Source: Provencibacterium sp. (GTDB lineage Bacteria; Bacillota; Clostridia; Oscillospirales; Ruminococcaceae). From it: a stretch of 64,000 nt of DNA. Positions 2,986 to 39,804 of this stretch are shown in pieces. Position 1 is the first letter of the stretch. Each line of letters opens with the position of its first letter. Under the pieces are notes generated by a model. It made no database searches. It worked only from the letters and a program-made list of their open reading frames with translations, and had not been told where the DNA came from. The DNA is taken from assembly GCA_022792175.1 (NCBI GenBank), contig JAAWAN010000020.1, positions 124,745-188,744 of the forward strand. The letters run 5' to 3'. Position numbers and translations under genes: made by a program.

Positions 2986-5400
2986 GTGTGGATGTTGAAA
3001 TATAATTATGCTGAGATTGAAAAAAAGTGGCAGAATATCTGGGAAAAGGAAAACACCTTTGCCGCATCGGAGGACCACAGCAAGCCCAAATATTATGCGC
3101 TGATTGAATTTCCCTATCCTTCCGGGCAGGGGCTGCATGTCGGCCATCCGCGCCCGTATACGGCGCTGGATATTGTCGCCCGCAAGCGCAGACTGCAGGG
3201 TTACAATGTGCTGTTCCCCATCGGCTGGGATGCTTTCGGCCTGCCGACGGAAAACTATGCCATTAAAAACCATATCCATCCGGAAATTGTAACCAAAAAT
3301 AATGTCGCCCGCTTTAAGTCCCAGCTTAAATCTCTCGGCCTCTCCTTTGATTGGAGCAGGGAGATCAACACCACCGACCCGGGCTATTATAAATGGACGC
3401 AGTGGATTTTCCTGCAGCTCTTTAAAAAGGGGCTGGCCTATAAAAAGGAGATGAACGTCAACTGGTGCACCGGGTGCAAGGTTGTTCTGGCCAACGAAGA
3501 GGTGGTCGGCGGTGTCTGCGAGCGGTGCGGTAGCGAGGTAGTACACAAGGTCAAAAGTCAGTGGATGCTTAAAATTACCGAATATGCCCAGCGGCTGATT
3601 GATGATCTCGACCTGGTGGACTACATAGACCGGGTCTCTACCTCTCAGAAAAACTGGATTGGCCGCTCCACCGGCGCCGAGGTCAGATTCTCCACTACTG
3701 CGGGGGATGAGCTGCTTATCTATACTACCCGGCCAGATACCCTCTTTGGCGCCACCTATATGGTCATTTCGCCGGAGCACCCTTACCTGCAGCGGTGGCA
3801 GGATAAAATCGAAAACTATGCTGATATCGTGCACTATGCTGAAGCGGCCGCCCGCAAATCCGACTTCGAGCGCACTGAGATTGTCAAGGACAAAACCGGC
3901 GTGGAGATCAAAGGGGTGCGCGGAATTAACCCTGTAAACGGCGAGGAAATTCCTATCTTCGTTTCGGATTATGTGCTGATGTCCTATGGCACCGGCGCCA
4001 TTATGGCGGTGCCCGCACACGATGAGCGAGACTGGGATTTTGCGAAAAAATTTGACCTCCCCATCATCGAAGTGGTGCAGGGGGGAGATGTGCAGCAGGC
4101 GGCCTTTACCGACTGCGAGACCGGCATTCTGGTCAATTCCGGCATTTTAAACGGACTGAGCGTTTCCCAGGCGAAGGAAAGGATTATCGCCTGGCTGCAG
4201 GAAAACGGCAAGGGTGAGCCGAAGGTCAATTTTAAGCTGCGCGACTGGGTCTTCTCCCGCCAGCGCTATTGGGGGGAGCCCATTCCGATTGTTTACTGCG
4301 AAAAATGCGGCTATGTTGCGCTTCCCGAGTCAGAGCTGCCGCTGATGCTGCCCGAGGTGCAGTCCTATGAGCCGACCGATAACGGTGAAAGTCCGCTTTC
4401 CAAAATGGAGGACTGGGTAAACACCACCTGCCCGCACTGCGGCGGCCCCGCCCGCCGGGAGACCGATACCATGCCCCAGTGGGCGGGCTCCTCCTGGTAT
4501 TTCCTGCGCTACTGCGACCCGCATAACGATAAAGCCCCCGCTTCGAAGGAGGCGCTCGACTACTGGATGCCGGTAGACTGGTACAACGGCGGTATGGAGC
4601 ATACCACGCTGCACCTGCTCTACTCCCGTTTCTGGCATAAGTTTTTGTATGATCTCGGCGTCGTCCCCGGGCCGGAGCCCTATGCCAAGCGGACGAGCCA
4701 CGGCATGATTCTGGGCGAAAACGGCGAAAAGATGTCCAAGAGCCGCGGGAATGTCGTCAACCCTGATGACATCGTGCGCGATTATGGGGCAGATACGCTG
4801 CGCACCTATGAGATGTTTATCGGCGACTTTGAGAAGGCGGCACCGTGGTCGAATTCCTCGGTGCGCGGCTGCAAGCGCTTTCTCGAGCGCATCTGGTCGC
4901 TGCAGGATATGCTTTCAGCGGAGAACGGCGTCACCCCGGCGCTGGAAAGCAGCCTGCACAAAACGATTAAAAAAGTCGAAAAGGACATTGAAAACCTGAA
5001 GTTTAACACTGCCATTGCCGCCATGATGGGATTTCTCAACGAAGTAACGGCGCATGGCTCCCTTTCGCGGGAGACCTACCGGGTGCTGTTGATTCTGCTC
5101 AACCCCTTTGCGCCGCACATTACCGAGGAAATTTATGAGCAGCTGGGCTATGGCGGGCGCATAAGTGACGAGCAGTGGCCGCAGTATGAGGAAAGCCTCT
5201 GCAAGGAGGAGACGGTCGAACTGGCCGTTCAGGTCAATGGAAAAATTCGGGGACGCTTCTCGCTGCCGGCCGAGGCCGGACAGGGGGAGGCCATTGCGCA
5301 GGCGAAACAGCTTCCGGAGATTGCAAAGCTGCTGGAAGGCAAAACGCTGGTCAAGGAAATTTATGTAAAGGGCAAGCTGGTAAACCTGGTCATCAAATAG
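2986..5400 (+). CDS. leuS: Leucine--tRNA ligase
   Basis: FPYPSG.GLHVGH (HIGH-like), [17 protein letters not shown] editing motif, VQVNGK tail. Start may be 2992. Confidence 0.97.
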
Positions 5401-9839: not shown

Positions 9840-9868
9840 TTGACAGGGCTTTCCGCAATCGGTATAAT
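9840..9868 (+). promoter_or_regulatory. SigA-type promoter of the apbE-rnf region
   Basis: TTGACA (9840) - 17 bp - TATAAT (9863). Confidence 0.8.
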
Positions 9869-9902
9869 GAAAACGATACAGATAGGGGGAGGCAGCGTTT
9901 CA

Positions 9903-31041: not shown

Positions 31042-32433
31042 ATGAAAATGGCTAAAATCAAGTCCACCTATGTCTGCAGCAGCTGCGGCTGTGTTTCTCC
31101 AAAATGGTATGGGAAATGCCCGGACTGCGGCGAATGGAACAGCATGCAGGAAACGCTGTCCGTTCCCGAGCCGGAGCCTGCCAAACGGCATCTTTCCCCG
31201 GTAAACGCTTCAATAGCGGCAGCCGAGGTGCTGTCGATTGATGAAATTGTTGCCGATGAAGCACTGCGCTATCATACCGGCATCGGCGAGCTGGACAGGG
31301 TACTGGGCGGCGGAATTGTTCAGGGATCGGTCACGCTGCTCAGCGGCGATCCGGGCATTGGGAAATCCACTCTGCTGCTGCAGATGTGCGCCCCCCTTTG
31401 CGAAGCGGGGTTGCGGGTATTATATGTATCCGGCGAGGAAAGTGCCCGGCAGCTCAAGCTGCGTGCCCAGCGGCTGGGCGTTCGGTCGGGCGGCCTGCTG
31501 ATTGCTTCTGCCACTCAGGCGCCTATCATTCTGTCCACCATTGAGAAGCATCAGCCGGATATCGTAATGATCGATTCCATCCAGACTATCTATATGCCCA
31601 CTCTCAATTCCTCCGCTGGTACCGTTTCTCAGATCAGAGAGTGCACACAGCTGCTGATTGCCTGTGCAAAGGGAAGGGAAATCCCTCTATTTTTGGTCGG
31701 ACATGTCAATAAGGATGGAGCGATTGCCGGCCCGAAGGTGATGGAGCACATGGTAGATACGGTGCTCTATTTTGAAGGGGAGCGCCATCTGGCCTTCCGT
31801 ATTCTGCGGGCCGTTAAAAACAGATTTGGTTCTACTAACGAGATCGGCGTTTTTCGGATGGCAGAGTCCGGCCTGGAGGAGGTGGGCAATCCCTCCTTTG
31901 AAATGATTGCCGGGCGGCCGCGGGATGTATCCGGCAGCTGTATTGCCTGTGTGATAGAAGGCTCCCGGCCGATTCTGGCCGAGGTACAAGCGCTGGTCTG
32001 TAAAACAAATTTCGGCACTCCGCGGCGGATGGCCACCGGCTTTGATTTTAACCGGACAGCACTGCTGCTGGCGGTTCTCGAAAAACGTTGCGGCTACTTT
32101 TTCGGCAATTTGGATGCCTATGTCAATGTAGCCGGAGGTCTGCGACTGGACGAGCCTGCCTCTGACCTGCCGGTTGCGCTGGCGCTGGTTTCCAACCTGA
32201 TTGATAAACCGGTCGCCTATGACCTGGCCGCCTTTGGGGAAATCGGACTGGCCGGAGAGCTGCGCAGCGTTTCCCATGCAGAGCTGCGCCTGAGCGAGGC
32301 CTACCGGTTGGGCTTCAGGCGGTTTCTGCTGCCCAAGGCGGCAGCTGGACAGCTCTCCAGGCTGCCGGAGGATGTCACCCTGATTGCCGCCGATTCGCTG
32401 CGGGCTGCCTTTGAGGCTGTCTTTACCGGCTGA
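31042..32433 (+). CDS. radA: DNA repair protein RadA/Sms
   Basis: CSSCG..CPDCG zinc finger, GDPGIGKST, KNRFG, Lon-like C-terminus. Confidence 0.97.
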   Translation: MKMAKIKSTYVCSSCGCVSPKWYGKCPDCGEWNSMQETLSVPEPEPAKRHLSPVNASIAAAEVLSIDEIVADEALRYHTGIGELDRVLGGGIVQGSVTLLSGDPGIGKSTLLLQMCAPLCEAGLRVLYVSGEESARQLKLRAQRLGVRSGGLLIASATQAPIILSTIEKHQPDIVMIDSIQTIYMPTLNSSAGTVSQIRECTQLLIACAKGREIPLFLVGHVNKDGAIAGPKVMEHMVDTVLYFEGERHLAFRILRAVKNRFGSTNEIGVFRMAESGLEEVGNPSFEMIAGRPRDVSGSCIACVIEGSRPILAEVQALVCKTNFGTPRRMATGFDFNRTALLLAVLEKRCGYFFGNLDAYVNVAGGLRLDEPASDLPVALALVSNLIDKPVAYDLAAFGEIGLAGELRSVSHAELRLSEAYRLGFRRFLLPKAAAGQLSRLPEDVTLIAADSLRAAFEAVFTG

Positions 32434-32564
32434 GAGGGGACAAAGTAGCTGCATTCTTCTCCAGATAACGCCGCGGGAGCCGCTGTTCCAAAAACGGTAC
32501 AGCACCCATCGCGCTGATGCATGCAACTCTTATTGCAGGATATCAAATTCATGATGATCACCAT
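32301..32564 (-). CDS. Small Cys-rich hypothetical protein overlapping the radA 3' end
   Basis: SD AAAGGA; MNLISCNKSCMHQRDGCC...ECSYF resembles small clostridial CxxxC..C..C proteins. Confidence 0.55.
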   Translation of the reverse strand: MVIIMNLISCNKSCMHQRDGCCTVFGTAAPAALSGEECSYFVPSQPVKTASKAARSESAAIRVTSSGSLESCPAAALGSRNRLKPNR

Positions 32565-32758
32565 TCCTTTTAGAAACGCCGGACGGCGTCTCTGCCTTTA
32601 GTGTAATTCCTAGGGAAGGGATTATACCCGGATTATTTTTCAGCCGCTTTCTTCCGGATAGGCGGTAAAAGAAAACAGAGAGGCTATCCTTTCCATCTGA
32701 TGGCCGTCCGTCTGCAATCGGCTAATTTTTTGAAAAGAGGGCAGAGAGGGGAGAAAGA

Positions 32759-33511
32759 ATGCTGCAGCCAGTTGATTTTCCCAATCTCCCGCAGGGAGAG
32801 GTAGCATTGGCCGCCGTCTCCGGAAGGGACAAGGAAATTCTGCAGACTCTTTGGAATCTGCAAATCGAACCGCTGCCGGTCAGCGAAAGCCTCCGGCTGG
32901 ACGGGCCCATTCGCTCTCATGCAGATATGCGTCTGCATTATCTGGGCCAGGGGGAAGTGGTTGTGGAGACGGGGGATGCCCTGCTGTTTTCCGCCTGCAT
33001 CCGCAGAGGGCTGAAGGCTATATATGCCGCCCACCCGCCGGAAAAACGCTATCCGCAGGATGTGGGACTAAACTGCTTTGCGCTGGGCCGTTATCTTATC
33101 GGACATCTCCAAGCGATGGACAGCGCCGTGCGCGGCAGCTACCTTTCCCGGGGATTCCAGCTGCTGGGAATCCCCCAGGGCTATGCCAAATGTTCTGCAG
33201 CCATTGTTTCAGCGAACGCGGTTATAACGGCCGATCCACCTTTGGCAGCAGTGCTGGAAAGGACAGGCTTCGACTGTCTGCGCATATCGCCCGGCCACAT
33301 ACTTTTAGAGGGCTATGCCTATGGCTTTCTGGGAGGTGCCTGCTTTTTATCCTCCCCAGACTCCCTCTGTTTTTTTGGGGACCTTGATACCCATCCAGAT
33401 GCAGAGGATATCCGTGCCTTCTGCCAAAGCCATGGTGTAGCGGTTCGATCGCTTCTGAAAGGAGCTCTGCGCGATATTGGCTCTGTTTTGCCGCTCTTCT
33501 GCAGAGTATAA
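32759..33511 (+). CDS. DUF6873-like pentein/GME-fold protein
   Basis: I.SHADM...LG, YPQDV.LNC, QGYAKCS, ITAD, I.LEGY.YGFLGG motifs. Confidence 0.65.
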   Translation: MLQPVDFPNLPQGEVALAAVSGRDKEILQTLWNLQIEPLPVSESLRLDGPIRSHADMRLHYLGQGEVVVETGDALLFSACIRRGLKAIYAAHPPEKRYPQDVGLNCFALGRYLIGHLQAMDSAVRGSYLSRGFQLLGIPQGYAKCSAAIVSANAVITADPPLAAVLERTGFDCLRISPGHILLEGYAYGFLGGACFLSSPDSLCFFGDLDTHPDAEDIRAFCQSHGVAVRSLLKGALRDIGSVLPLFCRV

Positions 33512-33576
33512 TGTTGAATTTTGTCGAATTTTAGGATATAATGGTTCCCATAAAAAAGATAAACGGGGATCAAAAG

Positions 33577-35034
33577 ATGAAAAAATGGAAAACCATCGGC
33601 TGGTTGGCAGTGATATCGGCAGCCATATTTTTCTGTCTGCAGGCGGGTGCTCTGGCGGATGAATCCGCTGCCTTTACAGGAAAAAATTCTTTTTCGCTTC
33701 AAAATGTAGTCTGGAAAGAGGAAAGCCCTGTCCCCGCTGCAAAGAAGGGCTACTATCAGCTGGGTGCTGGGGTCGGGCAGGGGAGCATCACCTTTTTCAA
33801 TGATGGTTATTCGCATCTGTCGGTAACCGGATATACCGAGTCTGCCTCCTTCACCTCCTGGCGCGGAAACCAGCCGGTTCGCGGATATACTTCTATCAAC
33901 CTCGGCTCTCTGGAGATTCTGCGGCTGCGCTATGATACCGGCCGCCATCTTTTGATGGCCTGCGATGGTCAGGAGGTTTTCTGTGTTTATCCTGACAGCA
34001 GCGCCGCCGATGGATCCGGCTACAGCTGCGCCTCCCTGTTCGGCATCCTTTCAGCGGATGCCTTTTCCCGTTTCCCATACTATGGAATCAGCCTGGAATT
34101 CTCGAAGGATGGCCGCCTGTTCGAACCGCTTCCTTCCGAGTATTTGCTGACGGCTCTGGAAGAAAGCGCAAAGCTTACCTATCAGGAAAAACACTCCGCA
34201 TCCGTTCCAAAGGATGCTGTCTGGCTGCGTATTTCGCTCAGCTATGCTAAAGAGCTGAAAAATAGTGAAGGAACGATTTTCGTCAACCATCAGGAATGTC
34301 CCATTAAAATTTCCGGTATCCGCTGCACACCTTCCCATGCCGAAGGCCCCTTCGTTTCCTCCTCTCAGCCAATCAGCTCTTCTTCCGGTAATGCGGACTC
34401 CAGCTCTTCCTTGCCGCCTGTTTCCAGTTCATCCGTCCCAGATATTTCCTCGTCCGTATCTTCTGGGGAAAACGATGTAACGTATGTGCCTTCCGAAGAA
34501 GAAAATGAAGGCAATAAAGCGGAAAACACCTCTTCGTCCAGCAAACCTAGCGTTTATCTGGATATCACCTCCTCCAAAACTTCGGGAGGGGAGAGCGACT
34601 CCTTTGATTCCTCCAAAAAGCAGCACTCCTTCGGAAAAGTGGAGAGGGAGCCTATACAGGATGCCCGGGAAAATGCATTTACTGCGGCTCCCTTCTCCGG
34701 GCCGTCTGCGGACGACAGTATGCTGGAGGACTCCTTGGAGGGTTCTTTAGAAGGAAAGGAGGCATCGGCTGCAGAAGAGGGGCTTTTAAAAGCAGAACTG
34801 TCCCCCTGCTCTGCACAGAAACCGGAAAGCAAAGCAGAAAGTCTGGCGGCAGAAGAAGCTATGGATAAAACCATATCATCTGATCTCTCCCCAGCAGGGC
34901 CCGAAAACCTGCAGGAGCAGGCGGAGAGCAGAGAAACTTCAGGTTTTCTGCTGCTGTATCTGGCCGGAGTCCTTTTTGCAGGGGCTTTCTGGGCCGGCCG
35001 GATCAGTACTCGATCTCATAAATTTAAAAAGTGA
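33577..35034 (+). CDS. Secreted, C-terminally anchored Ser-rich protein of unknown function
   Basis: Signal peptide, Ser/Glu-rich linker, C-terminal TM plus basic tail; promoter TTGAAT-17-TATAAT at 33514-33542. Confidence 0.75.
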   Translation: MKKWKTIGWLAVISAAIFFCLQAGALADESAAFTGKNSFSLQNVVWKEESPVPAAKKGYYQLGAGVGQGSITFFNDGYSHLSVTGYTESASFTSWRGNQPVRGYTSINLGSLEILRLRYDTGRHLLMACDGQEVFCVYPDSSAADGSGYSCASLFGILSADAFSRFPYYGISLEFSKDGRLFEPLPSEYLLTALEESAKLTYQEKHSASVPKDAVWLRISLSYAKELKNSEGTIFVNHQECPIKISGIRCTPSHAEGPFVSSSQPISSSSGNADSSSSLPPVSSSSVPDISSSVSSGENDVTYVPSEEENEGNKAENTSSSSKPSVYLDITSSKTSGGESDSFDSSKKQHSFGKVEREPIQDARENAFTAAPFSGPSADDSMLEDSLEGSLEGKEASAAEEGLLKAELSPCSAQKPESKAESLAAEEAMDKTISSDLSPAGPENLQEQAESRETSGFLLLYLAGVLFAGAFWAGRISTRSHKFKK

Positions 35035-35182
35035 CAGCTATTCTATTCGATTATCTGGTATAAACGGATAATTCCCCCAACAGAACTTGCAATTGCGGCG
35101 GATTTATTATATAGTTACAAAGGAGATATCTAAATTTATTAACCGGCGGTTGGCTATTTTGACGGCCGATGGGGGTTTCATC

Positions 35183-37009
35183 GTGACAGATAAAACGAAT
35201 TTATGTATGGGCTGCATGATGCTCCTGGATTCGAAAGGACCATGCAGCTATTGTGGATATAACGACTCTGAACCATATAATGTCAATTATCTGCCGCCGC
35301 ATACCCAGCTGCAGCAGCGGTATATTGTCGGCAGGCTGCTTTCTGAAAATGGCGAGGGCGCCTGTTATATCGGCTATGATTTGGAGGAGGATTATCGTGT
35401 TATCCTCCGGGAATTTGCTCCGCTGAAGCTGGCCGCACGCAACCATGCCACTCTGGAGCTGATGCCCATTCGGGAAAAAGAGACGGCCTTTAAAAACCTG
35501 CAGGCGGATTTTGAAGACCTTTGCTCCATGCTGCGGGGAATGCAGAACATCCGCGGTATTACGCAGGTGTTGGATATTTTTCATGAAAACGGTACGGTCT
35601 ATGCCGCTTTCCGCTATATGAACACCCTTTCACTGGGGACGCTCATCTCCCGTTGCGGCGGCGAAATTCCCTGGACGAAGTGCAAAAAGATGTATCTGCA
35701 GCTGCTTAATACCGCTTCGCAGATACATAAAAGAGGGCTGATTCATGCCGGGATCAGCCCGGAAACCATTTTGGTGGACGAAAAGGGAAATGCCTATTTC
35801 AGTCATTTTTCGGTGAATGTACTTCGCTATGCGAACAGCGAAATTGAAAGCGAGCTTTTTGATGGATACTGTGCCCCCGAGCAGTATGAAGCAAGCGCCT
35901 CCTTCGGGGAATGGACGGATATTTATGCGCTCAGTGCCGTTGTTTACCGGATGATTACCGGAACCCAGCCGCCGGATGCGCCCAGCCGCAGGGAGCAGGA
36001 TAATCTTCTTGCCGCCTGTGAGTTGGATTCTTCCATTCCGAAGAATATTTCTGATGCCATTCATGCCGGGCTGGCCCTCTCGATTGATGAGCGCACACCG
36101 ACTGCAGATGCGCTGGCTGCGCAGCTGCTGGACTGCATACAGACCAATACCGCTATCTACCAGGGAGAAAATTTCACACAGGATATTCATGCTGCGCTGG
36201 ATGCATCGGAAGAAACAGAAAAAGAAGAGAATCCGCCTATGAGCAGGCGGCAGCAGCGCAAACAGGAAAAGCTGGAAAAGCGCGCACTCAAGCGCAAAAA
36301 AAAGCGTCGTGCGCTTCGCAGCTTTTTGATCGCTCTGGTGACCATCCTCCTGACCTCGATGGGGCTGGGCGGCTTTATCATGTTCTATCTCTCCCGAAAT
36401 TATGATGATATTCAAAACAGCGTATCGCATTTCGTTTCAGTAGGGGAGAGGAGCTCCTCAAGCGCTTCTGGCTCTTCCTCTGAGCCGACCATTGTTCCGG
36501 ATTTTATCGGACAGCTTGCCGAAAAAATTACCTCCAACAAGGATTACAGCGCCAGCTTTGATCTTTCCGTTGTCTATCAATATAACGATGAACATCCCAC
36601 TGCAGGCGAGATATTCGATCAATCGCCAAAGGAGGGAACACGCATGTCCAACCGCGGCACGGTTATTCTCTATGTCAGCAAGGGGCCCGAAACGACCAGG
36701 CTGCCCAATCTTGCAGGAAGCACGGTAGAGCTGGCCATTCAAACGCTGGAAGGGATGGAGCTTCAGTATCAGGTTATCTATGTTATCAATGACAGCTATG
36801 CAGATGGCCTGGTGGCTTATACTTCTCCGGCAGCGGACAGCATGGTCTCCAAAAATGATGAAATTCTGATATTTACTAAAAATACCGAAGCTGCTTCCTC
36901 AGAGGCCTCTGGGGATTCTTCTGAGAGCTCATCCTCCAGCTCGGAGGAAAGCCGCCCCAAAGCGCGCAAAGTGCTTCGCGATGAAAGTAGCTCAAAAAAC
37001 GACTGGTAA
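35183..37009 (+). CDS. PASTA-domain Ser/Thr kinase-like protein (predicted pseudokinase)
   Basis: N-terminal CMGC..CSYCG, kinase-like fold with APEQY, TM helix, two PASTA-like repeats (VPDFIG, LPNLAG); GTG start. Confidence 0.85.
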   Translation: MTDKTNLCMGCMMLLDSKGPCSYCGYNDSEPYNVNYLPPHTQLQQRYIVGRLLSENGEGACYIGYDLEEDYRVILREFAPLKLAARNHATLELMPIREKETAFKNLQADFEDLCSMLRGMQNIRGITQVLDIFHENGTVYAAFRYMNTLSLGTLISRCGGEIPWTKCKKMYLQLLNTASQIHKRGLIHAGISPETILVDEKGNAYFSHFSVNVLRYANSEIESELFDGYCAPEQYEASASFGEWTDIYALSAVVYRMITGTQPPDAPSRREQDNLLAACELDSSIPKNISDAIHAGLALSIDERTPTADALAAQLLDCIQTNTAIYQGENFTQDIHAALDASEETEKEENPPMSRRQQRKQEKLEKRALKRKKKRRALRSFLIALVTILLTSMGLGGFIMFYLSRNYDDIQNSVSHFVSVGERSSSSASGSSSEPTIVPDFIGQLAEKITSNKDYSASFDLSVVYQYNDEHPTAGEIFDQSPKEGTRMSNRGTVILYVSKGPETTRLPNLAGSTVELAIQTLEGMELQYQVIYVINDSYADGLVAYTSPAADSMVSKNDEILIFTKNTEAASSEASGDSSESSSSSSEESRPKARKVLRDESSSKNDW

Positions 37010-37020
37010 AATATAGTAAA

Positions 37021-37070
37021 ATAAAGAGAGTGCAGCGAAACCGTCTCTTTCGTTGCACTCTCTTTATTTT
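37021..37070. terminator. Bidirectional terminator between the convergent kinase and GNAT genes
   Basis: ATAAAGAGAGTGCAGCGAAA / TTTCGTTGCACTCTCTTTAT inverted repeat. Confidence 0.8.
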
Positions 37071-37115
37071 CTTGAAAAAACAAGGCTATGGGCAAAAAGG
37101 AGACAAATAAAAAAC

Positions 37116-37700
37116 TTACAGGAAACGGTCCTTAATCTCCTCAAACGGGCGCACGGGCGGCGGCTGCGCCAGGTGGGCACCTATCTGCTTTTCCATCCAA
37201 ACCATATTGTACCAGCGTCCGAATTTATAGCCGCACTGATGAAATTCCCCCACCAAGCGAAAGCCCATCTGCCGGTGAAAGTCTATGCTGTCCCGGGTGA
37301 GATAAGGATCCACCTGCTGCGGACAGGCAATGCAGGCATTGAGGTTAACAATATGTTGAAAAGCCAGTATTTCTTCCAGCTTCAGATAAAGCGCCCTTCC
37401 AATTCCCCTTCGCTTGTGCTCCCCAGCAATATAGAGGCTGGTCTCTACCGCCCAGCGGTAAGCTGCCCGCTCATGAAAGGATCCGGCATAGGCATAGCCC
37501 ACAATCTCCCCATCCAGCTCGGCCGTCAGATAGGGGTAGCTTTTCAGCGTTTTCTCTATCCTGTCCGCAAATTCCTGCAGGGAAGGGATCTTATATTCAA
37601 AGGTAATTGCCGTTTGCTTCACATAGGGTGCATAAATTTTCAGCAGCTCTGGCGCATCCCGGGAATCAGCCACCCGAATATTTAAACCCGTTTTCTCCAT
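37116..37700 (-). CDS. GNAT N-acetyltransferase (phosphinothricin acetyltransferase-like)
   Basis: IYAPYV..TAITFE, VGYAYA, YRWAVE.S.Y, GIGRALY, GYKFGRWY. Confidence 0.88.
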   Translation of the reverse strand: MEKTGLNIRVADSRDAPELLKIYAPYVKQTAITFEYKIPSLQEFADRIEKTLKSYPYLTAELDGEIVGYAYAGSFHERAAYRWAVETSLYIAGEHKRRGIGRALYLKLEEILAFQHIVNLNACIACPQQVDPYLTRDSIDFHRQMGFRLVGEFHQCGYKFGRWYNMVWMEKQIGAHLAQPPPVRPFEEIKDRFL

Positions 37701-37727: not shown

Positions 37728-38393
37728 TTATTCGACGCTGTCAGAAGCGGCCTGCAGCGCCTGCCAGTGATCGCAGTAATCTTTGAGAACGCATTCGGCG
37801 CAACGGGGGCGGTTGGCAATGCAGACGGCGCGCCCATGGATGACCAGCCGATGGCAGAATGCCCCTGAGCGATCGAGAGGCAGAATCTCTCGCAGCTGCA
37901 TTTCTACCTTCAGTGGGTCCTTGCCCTTCGAAAGCCCCAACAGGTTGGTAATGCGGATGCAGTGGGTATCGCAAACTACCGAAGGCTTTCCAAAAATATC
38001 ACCGACAATAAGGTTGGCCGTTTTTCGCCCTACACCCGGCAGCCGGGTCAGCTCTTCAATGGTATCCGGCAGCTGATAGTGGTAAACATCGCGCAGCATA
38101 ATGGCCATGTTTTTTAAGTCGCGCGCCTTCATCTTATAAAAGCCGCAGGGACGCACCAGCTCTTCCAGCTCATTGAGGTCTGCTTCTGCAAAAGCATCGA
38201 TAGAAGGGTAGCGGCTAAACAGCTCCTTGGTAACAATGTTTACCCGCGCATCGGTACACTGCGCGGATAAGCGGGTAGACATCAGCAACTCATGCGGCTT
38301 TTCCTGATTATGCTCCAATGAACAATAGGCGGTGGGATAAGCTTCTTCCAGAAGCTGAACGATTTTTTCTGCTTTTTCCTGCAGGCTAGTCAT
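37728..38393 (-). CDS. nth: Endonuclease III
   Basis: LSAQCTD..VN, LPGVGRKTAN HhH, DTHCIR, C-terminal Cx6Cx2Cx5C 4Fe-4S motif. Confidence 0.96.
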   Translation of the reverse strand: MTSLQEKAEKIVQLLEEAYPTAYCSLEHNQEKPHELLMSTRLSAQCTDARVNIVTKELFSRYPSIDAFAEADLNELEELVRPCGFYKMKARDLKNMAIMLRDVYHYQLPDTIEELTRLPGVGRKTANLIVGDIFGKPSVVCDTHCIRITNLLGLSKGKDPLKVEMQLREILPLDRSGAFCHRLVIHGRAVCIANRPRCAECVLKDYCDHWQALQAASDSVE

Positions 38394-39448
38394 GAGTCAG
38401 CACCCGCTTTCCTGTTTTTCTTTTCAGCAATTTTTTCCAGATTATCGTGTACCGTTTCCTTTTGGCTTCTTTCAACCTCATTCGCCAACGGAGAAAGTGA
38501 TGAAGCGCGTTCCAGCTGCTTATCTGAAACATGGGTATAAATTTCTGTTGTAGAAAGATTGGCATGTCCTAAAATTTCCTTGAGTACCCGGATATCTACG
38601 CCGCCGTGCTGATACATCAGTGTGGCCGCCGTATGCCGGAGCTTGTGCGGCGAATAGCCCCGGCCGTCCAGATTGGAGCTGGAAAGCCCGCTTTCTACAA
38701 TCTGCTCCACACGGCGAGGGGAAAGCCGCTGCCCCTGCCCGGAAACAAAAAGGGCGTTGGGGTCCTTAGCGGAGGGCTTGCGAACCTTTTTATAGCGCTC
38801 AATGGCAGACAGACAGGCATCGTTCAGATAAACAATGCGCTCCTTATTTCCTTTACCCAAAAGGCGCAGCGTATTTTCGCGGATATCCTGCAGATTGATA
38901 CCGCACAGCTCAGAAAGGCGCATTCCGCAGTTTAAAAAGAGGGTTAAAATACAGTAATCCCGCTCATAATTTTTACCCTGCGGCAGATTTCGCAGCAGTT
39001 CCAGGCTCTCATCCAGTGAGAGAAAGCGCGGAACAGCGCGTTTAATGCTCGGCATTTCCAACAGCTCGAGCGGATTTTCCTCCAGAAGCTGCGTTTTGGA
39101 TACCAGATATTTATAAAAGGAACGCAGCGCCGAAACCTTGCGAGCCCGTACGCTGGCAATGTTGCCGCGTTCAGAGAGCGTATAGTTCAAAAAAGCATAA
39201 ATATCTGAGAGAGTCACCGAACAGATCACTTCATCTGGCAGGTCGGTGATCGGCTGTTCCTCCAGCGGAATATCTGAGTGCGCATGGCATACCTTGTGGT
39301 ATTTTAGATAACGCAGATACAGCCGCAAATCAACATGATAGGCTTCTACCGTTCGTGCAGACCGTCCGCGGATGGTCAACATATAATGTAGAAAGTCCTG
39401 CAGCGTCTGCGGGCAGTCTGAAAAATCGCTCTGTATGTATGCCGTAAT
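38390..39448 (-). CDS. xerC: Tyrosine recombinase, XerC/XerS-like
   Basis: Intact GMRLSE, GKGNKER, HKLRH, LGH, IYTH. The reading frame runs from the 39382 ATG back to an in-frame TGA at 39449-39451; true start uncertain (ATT 39448?). Confidence 0.88.
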   Translation of the reverse strand: MTAYIQSDFSDCPQTLQDFLHYMLTIRGRSARTVEAYHVDLRLYLRYLKYHKVCHAHSDIPLEEQPITDLPDEVICSVTLSDIYAFLNYTLSERGNIASVRARKVSALRSFYKYLVSKTQLLEENPLELLEMPSIKRAVPRFLSLDESLELLRNLPQGKNYERDYCILTLFLNCGMRLSELCGINLQDIRENTLRLLGKGNKERIVYLNDACLSAIERYKKVRKPSAKDPNALFVSGQGQRLSPRRVEQIVESGLSSSNLDGRGYSPHKLRHTAATLMYQHGGVDIRVLKEILGHANLSTTEIYTHVSDKQLERASSLSPLANEVERSQKETVHDNLEKIAEKKNRKAGADS

Positions 39449-39460
39449 TCATCCCCCCTA

Positions 39461-39490
39461 AATTTCGCTAAATTTTTATTTAGCGAAATT
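39461..39490. other. Palindrome AATTTCGCTAAA-TTTTTA-TTTAGCGAAATT; candidate dif-like recombination site or operator
   Basis: 12-6-12 (13-4-13) perfect inverted repeat directly upstream of the xer SD. Confidence 0.5.
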
Positions 39491-39747: not shown

Positions 39748-39804
39748 TTATGTCATAAGGTTATGTCATAAGGCAGATTCCGAAACAAATGTTTCGGAAT
39801 CTGC
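39748..39804. repeat. Tandem TTATGTCATAAGG x2 abutting a 15-2-15 perfect inverted repeat
   Basis: 39748-39760 equals 39761-39773; GCAGATTCCGAAACA-AA-TGTTTCGGAATCTGC at 39773-39804. Confidence 0.9.

What the first reader, a model, noticed from the sequence alone, without database searches (positions are those of the whole stretch)
38390..39490. Candidate single-recombinase Xer/dif module (XerS/difSL-like) in a clostridial lineage
Seen: an intact tyrosine recombinase, with a perfect palindrome AATTTCGCTAAA-TTTTTA-TTTAGCGAAATT touching its SD, exactly where the skew flips. I found no canonical ATAA-N6-TTATG dif in this gap and no second xer in the window. Established: streptococcal XerS acts alone on difSL just upstream of its own gene, and Xer sites have roughly 11-bp arms around a 6-8 bp core. 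From memory (to verify), the difSL left arm TTTC-N3-AAA before a 6-bp core has the same geometry, and this protein's N-terminus (P..L.DF..Y...S..T...Y; ITDLP.EV...D...FL.Y) resembles XerS. Inference: this palindrome is the dimer-resolution site and may also autoregulate xer.
Basis: partly seen in the sequence, partly recalled or inferred. Interest (0 to 1): 0.85.

Follow-up and report, generated by a model that had tools for sequence, protein, structure and literature searches.

The report
Palindromic clostridial dif–Xer module
A perfectly symmetrical 28-bp DNA site beside a recombinase gene at the replication terminus is very probably where this gut Clostridia bacterium and hundreds of relatives separate joined sister chromosomes; it is a non-standard form of a known system, it may explain why the standard site was never found in Clostridium, and phages appear to exploit it.

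Summary
A perfect palindrome sits at 39461-39490 (core ATTTCGCTAAA-TTTTTA-TTTAGCGAAAT, 39462-39489), one base from the Shine-Dalgarno sequence of a tyrosine-recombinase gene. It is unique in the window and lies about 3 kb from the cumulative GC-skew maximum.

Comparative evidence strongly supports a dif-like recombination site:
- 56 of 81 orthologous loci carry an 11-6-11 inverted repeat within 2 kb upstream of the gene, 51 of them perfect. That is roughly 110-fold over background.
- The spacer is always 6 bp, and the arm sequence tracks the recombinase phylogeny.
- 31 of 38 testable loci show the +/- skew flip of a terminus; none shows the opposite.
- Clostridium sensu stricto has the same module where genes and skew converge.
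- Integrase-less filamentous prophages sit exactly at the site, flanked by a full site and a hybrid site whose homology ends at the central region.
- The same arms, with different centres, occur on tailed-phage genomes that lack the recombinase.

The protein is not XerS-like. Family-model scores rank XerC > XerD > XerA > XerS, all below cut-off. The arms resemble the XerC arm of Firmicutes dif.

Single-recombinase action, FtsK control and autoregulation remain inferred. In this genus the full-length gene has no canonical start codon.

The parts
39462..39489 (.). 28-bp core recombination site (dif-type): two arms and a central region
   Evidence: Perfect 11-6-11 inverted repeat, unique in the window. 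It is 100% conserved, centre included, in five Provencibacterium-like relatives while the rest of the intergenic region cannot be aligned. Homologous sites lie upstream of the orthologous gene in 56 of 81 loci.
39462..39472 (+). Left arm ATTTCGCTAAA, the predicted binding site for one recombinase monomer
   Evidence: The arm sequence is conserved and covaries with the recombinase clade...CGCTAAA...CACTAAA...ATACAAAA...GCGCAAAA...CGTGAAA. It matches the XerC arm of Lactobacillus casei dif, ACTTCGCATAA, at 9 of 11 positions.
39473..39478 (+). Asymmetric 6-bp central region TTTTTA (TAAAAA in gene orientation), the predicted strand-exchange region
   Evidence: The length is always 6 bp. The host consensus is T-[AG]-A-A-[AT]-A, found in either orientation. 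It is conserved within host lineages but differs on phage-borne copies. In prophage junctions the homology ends exactly after this region.
39479..39489 (+). Right arm TTTAGCGAAAT, the exact reverse complement of the left arm
   Evidence: 11 of 11 positions are complementary here and in 51 of 56 orthologous sites.
38390..39445 (-). Tyrosine recombinase gene (Xer family, XerC-like). Called ORF 38390-39382. The conserved N-terminal extension reaches at least 39445, with a candidate non-canonical ACG start at 39443-39445.
   Evidence: Pfam Phage_integrase plus Phage_int_SAM_1; NCBIfam XerC 226 bits, XerD 201, XerA 187, XerS 131, all below cut-off. Catalytic R-K-H-R-H-Y residues intact. Homologues start about 20 residues before the called Met. 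ACG lies 7 nt after the SD and is conserved in relatives.
39453..39459 (-). Shine-Dalgarno sequence AGGGGGG of the recombinase gene, one base from the site
   Evidence: Read directly from the sequence; conserved in relatives.
37728..38393 (-). Endonuclease III (nth). Its ATG overlaps the recombinase stop (ATGA), so the two are co-transcribed in this genus. It is not part of the recombination system itself.
   Evidence: TIGR01083 nth at 203 bits; same arrangement in relatives.
32322..37670 (.). Plateau of the cumulative G-C skew maximum (peak at 36453), marking the replication-terminus zone

Best explanation
The palindrome is the chromosomal dimer-resolution (dif-type) site of a clostridial Xer system.

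Proposed mechanism. The adjacent XerC-like tyrosine recombinase binds one monomer to each of the two identical 11-bp arms. Two sites on a chromosome dimer synapse as a tetramer. Strands are cut and exchanged at the borders of the asymmetric 6-bp central region, which sets the alignment of the partners. This converts dimers to monomers at the terminus.

What is shown:
- the site's architecture, conservation and covariation with the recombinase;
- its position at the terminus;
- natural recombination products at the site, in the form of prophage junctions.

What is inferred:
- action as a homo-oligomer without a XerD partner;
- activation by FtsK/SpoIIIE;
- cleavage positions;
- repression of xer in this genus, where the site abuts the SD.

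The same arms with other central regions on phage genomes are best read as cer/lox-like sites that borrow the host enzyme.
For: (1) Architecture. 11-6-11 with a fixed 6-bp spacer in every genome. 56 of 81 loci have a site with at least 10 of 11 arm positions paired within 2 kb upstream of the gene, 51 of them perfect. That is 0.37 per kb against 0.0033 per kb elsewhere in 1.2 Mb.
(2) Specificity covaries with the enzyme. Arm variants partition with the recombinase tree, and further variants sit beside more distant homologues.
(3) Terminus. 31 of 38 loci show GC skew + on the left and - on the right of the site, and none shows the reverse. In the window the skew peak is 3 kb away. In Clostridium sensu stricto, genes and skew (+0.22 to +0.28, then -0.14 to -0.17) converge on the module.
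(4) Independence from the xer promoter. The site is separated from the gene by housekeeping genes in L003, L017, L020 and L044. Host-like sites without a nearby xer gene, sharing a conserved centre, also exist.
(5) In-vivo recombination products. In L019 an 8.4-kb element is inserted between mutS2 and xer. It carries a Zot-like protein and a replication initiator but no integrase. It is flanked by a hybrid site (ATTGCACTAAA TCAAAG CTATGACAATA) and the perfect site. Relatives have mutS2-site-xer directly, and the homology between the two junctions stops right after the central region. L295 is a second such case; L027 and L033 are similar but encode a mini-integrase.
(6) The catalytic residues are intact and invariant, and the fold matches XerA, XerD and XerH.
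(7) No canonical Firmicutes dif was found in 1.36 Mb of these terminus loci. Kono et al. 2011 failed, or predicted sites 137-175 degrees from the skew shift, in Clostridium.
Against: - No biochemical or genetic test exists.
- Whole genomes could not be scanned, so uniqueness of the site per genome and absence of a XerD paralogue are unverified. The literature states that XerC and XerD are both widespread in Firmicutes (PMC8136486).
- About 20 of 80 loci, mainly one Acutalibacteraceae-like clade, have no site nearby and mostly no skew flip.
- Skew around the host-like sites that lack a nearby xer gene was inconclusive.
- A few lineages have asymmetric arms: L002, L007, L016 and C. tertium.
- A possible canonical-looking site lies 5.3 kb away in L068.
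- In this genus the full-length gene lacks a canonical start codon.
Confidence: 0.8

Rival explanations
1. The site is dif, but it is processed by a conventional heterotetramer: this XerC-like protein together with a XerD paralogue encoded elsewhere in the genome. It would then be an unusually symmetric XerCD/dif rather than a single-recombinase system.
For: - The family scores best on the XerC model.
- The arms resemble the XerC arm of Firmicutes dif.
- The literature reports XerC and XerD as ancient and widespread in Firmicutes, and Kono et al. treated Clostridium as XerCD-containing.
- Some lineages have one diverged arm: C. tertium, L002 and L007.
Against: - 51 of 56 sites are perfect 11/11 palindromes across very divergent genomes. 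Two paralogues with distinct specificities would not maintain this, and canonical dif arms always differ.
- No XerD-type arm (TTATGTAAACT-like) occurs at these termini.
- No second recombinase is present in the window or in 79 of 80 loci.
Confidence: 0.15
2. The palindrome is only an operator. The recombinase, or a recombinase-derived repressor, binds it to control xer-nth transcription without recombining it.
For: - In this genus the site abuts the SD.
- In the ...TGTATAAT variant, one arm looks like an extended -10 box.
- Recombinase-fold repressors exist, for example phi3T SroF among the fold matches.
Against: - The catalytic residues are intact and invariant.
- The distance to the gene varies from -34 to -1622, with genes in between.
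- The site tracks the terminus.
- Prophages are inserted exactly at the central region.
- Copies of the site without a recombinase gene occur on phage genomes.
Confidence: 0.03
3. The palindrome acts as an RNA hairpin in the xer 5' UTR or as a transcription terminator.
For: It folds into a 14-bp hairpin (z = -4.9), and changes on both arms preserve pairing.
Against: - There is no G+C-rich stem or T tract, and no terminator call.
- There is no Rfam match.
- The rare imperfect sites show C·A and C·C mismatches rather than G·U pairs.
- The arm sequence, not just the pairing, is conserved over family-level distances.
- The site occurs in both orientations, beyond other genes, and in phages.
Confidence: 0.02

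Closest known systems
XerS/difSL of Streptococcus and Lactococcus
   Same: The site lies immediately upstream of its recombinase gene as one module at the terminus. The arms are of the TTTC-N3-AAA type. One enzyme is presumed to be sufficient.
   Different: The protein is not in the XerS family (131 bits against a cut-off of 267). The site is 28 bp with a 6-bp centre and perfectly symmetric arms, whereas difSL is 31 bp with unequal arms and an enlarged centre.
Canonical XerC/XerD-dif of Firmicutes (CodV/RipX, dif ACTTCCTAGAATATATATTATGTAAACT)
   Same: 28-bp 11-6-11 geometry with an AT-rich centre beginning with T and ending with A. The site is at the terminus. The protein is closest to XerC, and the arm is 9 of 11 identical to a XerC arm.
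   Different: Both arms are the same XerC-like sequence, and the inner bases are TAAA/TTTA instead of ATAA/TTAT. There is no XerD arm. The gene is linked to the site. The protein scores below the XerC and XerD cut-offs.
XerL/dif of Legionellales
   Same: A single recombinase, with dif arms that are long uninterrupted inverted repeats. The system was discovered through a mobile element integrated at the site.
   Different: In Legionella pneumophila the gene lies more than 400 kb from dif. Protein relatedness was not tested here. The host phylum is different.
XerA/dif (Archaea) and XerH/difH (Campylobacterota)
   Same: Single-recombinase Xer systems. XerA is the best structural match (5hxy, 4a8e), and XerH is also matched.
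   Different: The XerA model scores 187 bits, below its cut-off of 220. XerH is distant at 55 bits. Their sites have imperfect arms.
Cre/loxP and plasmid cer/psi sites
   Same: Perfectly symmetric arms around an asymmetric spacer that dictates partner choice. Phage copies with other spacers resemble heterospecific lox sites. Recombinase-less copies on replicons that rely on the host enzyme resemble cer and psi.
   Different: The arms are 11 bp with a 6-bp spacer. The enzyme is chromosomal and housekeeping, not phage-encoded.
IMEX (CTXphi, VGJphi and LME-1, integrated at dif by host Xer)
   Same: Integrase-less filamentous prophages (L019, L295) flanked by a full site and a hybrid site that share the central region.
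   Different: The hosts are Clostridia. Integration by the host enzyme is inferred, not demonstrated, and the free attP form was not found.

Membership tests
XerS/difSL | Recombinase belongs to the XerS family (NCBIfam NF003462, cut-off 267 bits) | tested here: not met
   130.9 bits. XerC, XerD and XerA models all score higher, for all 16 family members.
XerS/difSL | 31-bp site with unequal arms (TTTCCGAAAA / TTTTCTTGAAA) and an enlarged central region | tested here: not met
   The site is 28 bp, with identical 11-bp arms and a 6-bp centre.
XerS/difSL | Site immediately upstream of the recombinase gene, at the replication terminus | tested here: met
   The site is 1 nt from the SD. The skew peak is 3 kb away. 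31 of 38 orthologous loci flip +/- at the site.
XerS/difSL | One recombinase is necessary and sufficient; the reaction is FtsK-dependent | not testable with these tools
   Requires genetics or biochemistry.
Canonical XerCD/dif | Protein passes the XerC (TIGR02224, 335 bits) or XerD (TIGR02225, 330 bits) equivalog cut-off | tested here: not met
   226.5 and 200.7 bits; the best family member reaches an E-value of about 3.5e-70.
Canonical XerCD/dif | 28-bp site with 11-bp arms and a 6-bp centre, single copy at the terminus | tested here: met
   Single copy was tested only within the window and within about 20-kb loci.
Canonical XerCD/dif | Two different arms (a XerC arm plus a conserved XerD arm TTATGTnAAnT) with inner ATAA/TTAT | tested here: not met
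   The arms are identical, with inner TAAA/TTTA. No canonical dif was found in 1.36 Mb of terminus loci.
Canonical XerCD/dif | Two paralogous recombinases in the genome | tested here: inconclusive
   No second recombinase in the 64-kb window or in 79 of 80 loci. Whole genomes could not be scanned.
Archaeal XerA | Protein passes NF040815 (220 bits) | tested here: not met
   186.5 bits, although XerA is the best fold match.
Tyrosine recombinase, Xer clade in general | Catalytic R-K-H-R-H-Y residues, an N-terminal SAM-like domain and a C-terminal catalytic domain | tested here: met
   R177, K199, H268, R271, H295 and Y304 are invariant. The AF2 model (pLDDT 79) matches XerA, XerD and XerH.
IMEX (for the elements found at the site in relatives) | No integrase of its own; integrated at dif; flanked by dif and a hybrid dif-like site sharing the central region | tested here: met
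   L019 and L295. L027 and L033 carry a 172-202 aa integrase-like protein and therefore do not qualify.

The most novel reading that the evidence does not exclude
Most of the class Clostridia (Oscillospirales and Clostridium sensu stricto, at least 588 species) resolves chromosome dimers with a homomeric XerC-derived recombinase acting on a perfectly palindromic dif. This would be a fifth single-recombinase Xer family. It would explain the long-missing dif of Clostridium. It would be hijacked by integrase-less filamentous phages, which would be IMEXs in Gram-positive anaerobes. It would also be mimicked on tailed-phage genomes by sites with the same arms but heterospecific central regions, forming a natural lox-like toolbox.
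Probability: 0.5. Interest if true: 0.75.

Novelty: new variant of a known kind. Interest (0 to 1): 0.7.

Why it matters
Xer/dif is the near-universal solution to chromosome dimers, yet no credible dif has been defined for Clostridium. Kono et al. 2011 either failed or predicted sites on the wrong side of the chromosome.

If this reading is right, it has several consequences:
- A defined 28-bp site and its enzyme would give a terminus marker for thousands of gut and clostridial genomes and MAGs.
- It would explain where integrase-less prophages insert in these genomes.
- It would provide a family of recombinase-and-site pairs with naturally varied arm specificities and spacers that could serve as orthogonal genome-engineering tools in Clostridia.
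- It would provide a case of XerC-to-homomer evolution to compare with XerS, XerH, XerA and XerL.

Tried and rejected
- Terminator or RNA element: no terminator or promoter consensus call at the site and no Rfam family.
- Canonical dif: pattern and mismatch scans against seven known dif sequences found only background.
- XerS kinship: rejected on model scores.
- Second xer gene in the window: none found by tblastn.
- The tandem TTATGTCATAAGG repeat and the 15-2-15 inverted repeat in the same gap: considered as accessory or alternative sites, but they are absent from close relatives.
- Free (circular) form of the L019 element: a search for its attP found nothing in viral contigs.
- Host-like sites without a nearby xer gene, as a gene-independent terminus test: skew and gene orientation were inconclusive on short contigs.
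- FtsK-orienting polar motifs: only weak polarity in 64 kb, confounded by gene orientation.
- Prior description: six literature searches, including a search for the motif strings themselves, found none. Closed-access papers were not covered.
Full report
**1. The observation**

The window carries a perfect inverted repeat at 39461-39490 (13-4-13). Read as a recombinase core site, it is ATTTCGCTAAA (39462-39472), TTTTTA (39473-39478) and TTTAGCGAAAT (39479-39489).

It is the only match in 64 kb even with three mismatches allowed, and none occurs in shuffled sequence. One base separates it from AGGGGGG (39453-39459), the Shine-Dalgarno sequence of a minus-strand tyrosine-recombinase gene (38390-39382 as called).

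The window has no ATAA-N6-TTATG motif and no second tyrosine recombinase. Cumulative G-C peaks at 36453, on a plateau from 32.3 to 37.7 kb, so the site is about 3 kb from the skew switch.

The palindrome has no terminator features, and the region has no Rfam match.

**2. The gene**

Pfam finds Phage_integrase plus the N-terminal SAM-like domain. NCBIfam ranks XerC (226 bits) above XerD (201), XerA (187) and XerS (131). All are below the curated cut-offs, and the order is the same for all 16 family members tested.

By sequence, the best solved relatives that are named recombinases are XerD and XerA, with XerH far behind. One higher-scoring chain is deposited under an unrelated name. An AlphaFold model (pLDDT 79) matches XerA, XerD and XerH. 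The catalytic residues R177, K199, H268, R271, H295 and Y304 are present and invariant.

So this is an active-looking Xer-clade enzyme closest to XerC.

One oddity concerns the start. Homologues begin about 20 residues upstream of the called Met, with M-x4-6-[FY]-x-D-C-P-x-x-L-x-D-F-L.
- In the window and in four Provencibacterium-like relatives that stretch is in frame and conserved. Synonymous changes keep the peptide.
- No ATG, GTG or TTG precedes it, and the ATG next to the SD is in another frame.
- A conserved ACG sits 7 nt after the SD.
- The sequence is identical in four independent public runs.

**3. Comparative test of the site**

Eighty orthologous loci from GTDB species representatives were fetched.
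- Frequency. An 11-6-11 inverted repeat whose inner bases are AAA/TTT lies within 2 kb upstream of the gene in 56 of 81 loci, and 51 of these are perfect. That is 0.37 per kb, against 0.0033 per kb in the remaining 1.2 Mb.
- Spacer. It is always 6 bp.
- Arms. They come in a few variants: ATTTCGCTAAA, ACTTCGCTAAA, GTTTCACTAAA, ATTGCACTAAA, ATTATACAAAA, ATTGCGCAAAA and others. These partition with the recombinase tree, and further variants appear beside more distant homologues.
- Centre. The host consensus is T-[AG]-A-A-[AT]-A, found in either orientation relative to the gene.
- Close relatives. The site, its centre and the SD are identical while the rest of the intergenic region cannot be aligned.

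**4. Terminus**

Any terminus read 5' to 3' must go from positive to negative GC skew, whatever the orientation. Of 38 loci with at least 5 kb on both sides, 31 are +/-, none is -/+, and 7 do not change sign.

The family is also the protein that sources name 'XerC' in Clostridium sensu stricto. There, left-flank genes (ftsK, recA, rny, purB) are on the + strand and right-flank genes (mutS, mutL, miaA, hfq) on the - strand. Skew goes from +0.22 to +0.28 on the left to -0.14 to -0.17 on the right. Three sites were read from these loci:
- ACGTCGTGAAA-TATACA-TTTCACGACGT;
- TATTCGCGAAA-TGTTTA-TTTCGCGAAAT (C. tetanomorphum);
- ATTTCGCTAAA-TATACA-TTTATTATATT, an asymmetric site (C. tertium).

Each lies 50-170 nt upstream of the gene.

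**5. Not merely an operator or hairpin**
- The distance to the gene ranges from -34 to -1622. In L003, L017, L020 and L044, unrelated housekeeping genes lie between the site and the gene.
- Host-like contigs from metagenomes carry the site without a nearby xer gene, with a conserved centre (TGCAAA) in a partly syntenic context.
- The rare imperfect sites show C·A and C·C mismatches rather than G·U pairs.

**6. Natural recombination products**

In L019 the ancestral order mutS2-site-xer, seen in L026 and L029, is interrupted by an 8.4-kb element. The element encodes a Zot-like morphogenesis protein and a replication initiator but no integrase.
- Its left junction is a hybrid site, ATTGCACTAAA-TCAAAG-CTATGACAATA. 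Its right junction is the perfect site, ATTGCACTAAA-TCAAAG-TTTAGTGCAAT.
- The two junctions are homologous for about 110 bp up to and including the central region, and they diverge immediately after it.

This is the signature of integration by exchange within the central region, as for elements that exploit Xer in Vibrio and Legionella.

L295 is a second inovirus-like case. L027 and L033 show the same full-plus-hybrid arrangement but carry a 172-202 aa integrase-like protein.

**7. Phage-borne copies**

Exact matches to the two commonest arm pairs occur in 20 and 36 IMG/VR contigs. Nearly all lack the recombinase gene and lie inside genuine tailed-phage modules: between terS and terL, after the portal gene, or near replication genes.

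Their central regions (TTAGAC, TCTTGA, TACCTA and others) differ from the host consensus. In one phage lineage with 81% identical flanks, all seven members have different centres (46% identity). Host lineages with similar flank divergence keep the centre at 95-100%.

The simplest reading is that these replicons borrow the host enzyme for their own multimer resolution, as cer, psi and lox do. A heterologous centre would prevent exchange with the chromosomal site. This reading is an inference.

**8. Relation to known dif sites**

The supplement of Kono et al. 2011 lists Firmicutes dif as ACTTCCTATAA/TATATA/TTATGTAAACT, with L. casei having ACTTCGCATAA as its left arm. Arms found in relatives (ACTTCGCTAAA) match that XerC arm at 9 of 11 positions, the window's own arm (ATTTCGCTAAA) at 8, and the centres are of similar type.

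The same table gives no dif for C. perfringens and C. beijerinckii, and for C. botulinum it gives sites 137-175 degrees from the skew shift-point. No canonical dif was found in 1.36 Mb of the terminus loci studied here. L068 has one canonical-looking candidate 5.3 kb from the gene, but that is compatible with chance in 28% G+C DNA.

The site is therefore best described as a dif whose two arms are both XerC-type. Compared with difSL (31 bp, unequal arms) it shares the module organisation and an arm flavour, but not the geometry or the enzyme family.

**9. What remains inferred**

The two-fold symmetry kept in 51 of 56 genomes argues for one protein species on both arms. I could not census whole genomes for a XerD paralogue, and the literature treats XerC and XerD as widespread in Firmicutes.

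Dependence on FtsK/SpoIIIE, the cleavage positions and dimer resolution itself are untested. Autoregulation is plausible in this genus, where the site touches the SD, but it is not a conserved feature.

About 20 loci, chiefly one clade, have neither a site nor a skew flip nearby. This suggests that gene and site are unlinked there.

**10. Novelty**

Six literature searches, including one for the motif strings, found no description of this site or system. The enzyme is routinely annotated 'XerC'.

I rate it a new variant of a known kind: a fifth single-recombinase-type Xer/dif arrangement, very widespread, with associated mobile elements.

Noticed in passing
window 39382-39460 (minus strand); L137-L142: The conserved N-terminal roughly 20 residues of the recombinase have no ATG, GTG or TTG start in this genus. 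The SD-adjacent ATG (39450-39452) is out of frame and overlaps a TGA. A conserved ACG (39443-39445) lies 7 nt after the SD and may be a weak non-canonical start. The sequence is identical in four public runs.
   Followed up: partly
window 38390-38393: The recombinase stop and the nth (endonuclease III) start overlap as ATGA, which suggests translational coupling. The same arrangement occurs in close relatives.
   Followed up: partly
window 39748-39804: A tandem repeat TTATGTCATAAGG x2 (each unit containing the palindrome TTATGnCATAA) directly abuts a perfect 15-2-15 inverted repeat, GCAGATTCCGAAACA-AA-TGTTTCGGAATCTGC. Both lie in the divergent xer/HAD-phosphatase intergenic region. Neither is conserved in relatives, and their function is unknown.
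   Followed up: partly
L081-L136 (IMG/VR contigs): 56 viral contigs carry the same 11-bp arms without the recombinase gene, inside tailed-phage packaging or replication modules. Their central regions differ from the host consensus. One lineage (L108, L111, L118, L124, L126, L131, L134) has seven different centres in seven phages.
   Followed up: partly
L019:1150-9990; L295:1462-6683: Integrase-less filamentous-phage-like elements (Zot-like protein, Rep, small hydrophobic proteins) are integrated exactly at the site. Each is flanked by a full site and a hybrid site that share the central region.
   Followed up: yes
L027:5064-9722; L033:5072-9493: 4.4-4.6-kb elements sit at the site with the same full-plus-hybrid junctions. 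They encode a 172-202 aa catalytic-domain-only integrase-like protein, and L027 also encodes a rolling-circle Rep.
   Followed up: partly
L019:1197-1224, 1493-1520, 9846-9876: A second, dif-like motif of the ATAA-N6-TTAT type (for example ATTTCGCAATAA-TAAAA-ATTATGTGCAAT) recurs about 75 bp upstream of each junction and once on its own. It may be an accessory site or a remnant of earlier integrations.
   Followed up: no
L343/L344 versus L345, position 9841-9846: Contigs that encode the identical recombinase protein and have near-identical flanks differ by an inverted central region (TATACA versus TGTATA), while the arms are unchanged.
   Followed up: no
L042:967-5028: Two paralogous recombinase genes (each about 53% identical to the query) flank a single site, together with an AbrB-like gene and membrane-protein genes.
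   Followed up: no
L073:~170-205; L043:~3630-3665: Two unusual arrangements. In L073 the arms are in swapped order (TTTTGTATAAT-TGA-ATTATACAAAA) and overlap a TTGACA-N17-TATAAT promoter. In L043 a hybrid of two arm types is separated by an 8-bp spacer.
   Followed up: no
L273, L277, L297, L331, L332, L336 and others: Host-like metagenome contigs carry the site without a nearby xer gene, with a conserved TGCAAA centre. The context is partly syntenic (flavodoxin-like gene, SpoU methylase, SpoIIID).
   Followed up: partly
window 39455-39490, in runs X1, X3, X7: In mouse-gut metagenomes, one to eight or more other contigs with unrelated flanks match only these 35 nt, with 2-3 differences. Many co-resident genomes or phages therefore share the site.
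   Followed up: partly
L060:~9930: The site upstream of the Caproiciproducens orthologue is partly replaced by a run of N (masked stretch) in the stored record.
   Followed up: no
window, whole: Some G-rich words point towards the site from both sides: GGGGGAG 9:0 on the left and 0:6 on the right; GGGCAGGG 5:1 and 0:2. This is a weak hint of FtsK/SpoIIIE-orienting polarity and is confounded by gene orientation.
   Followed up: partly
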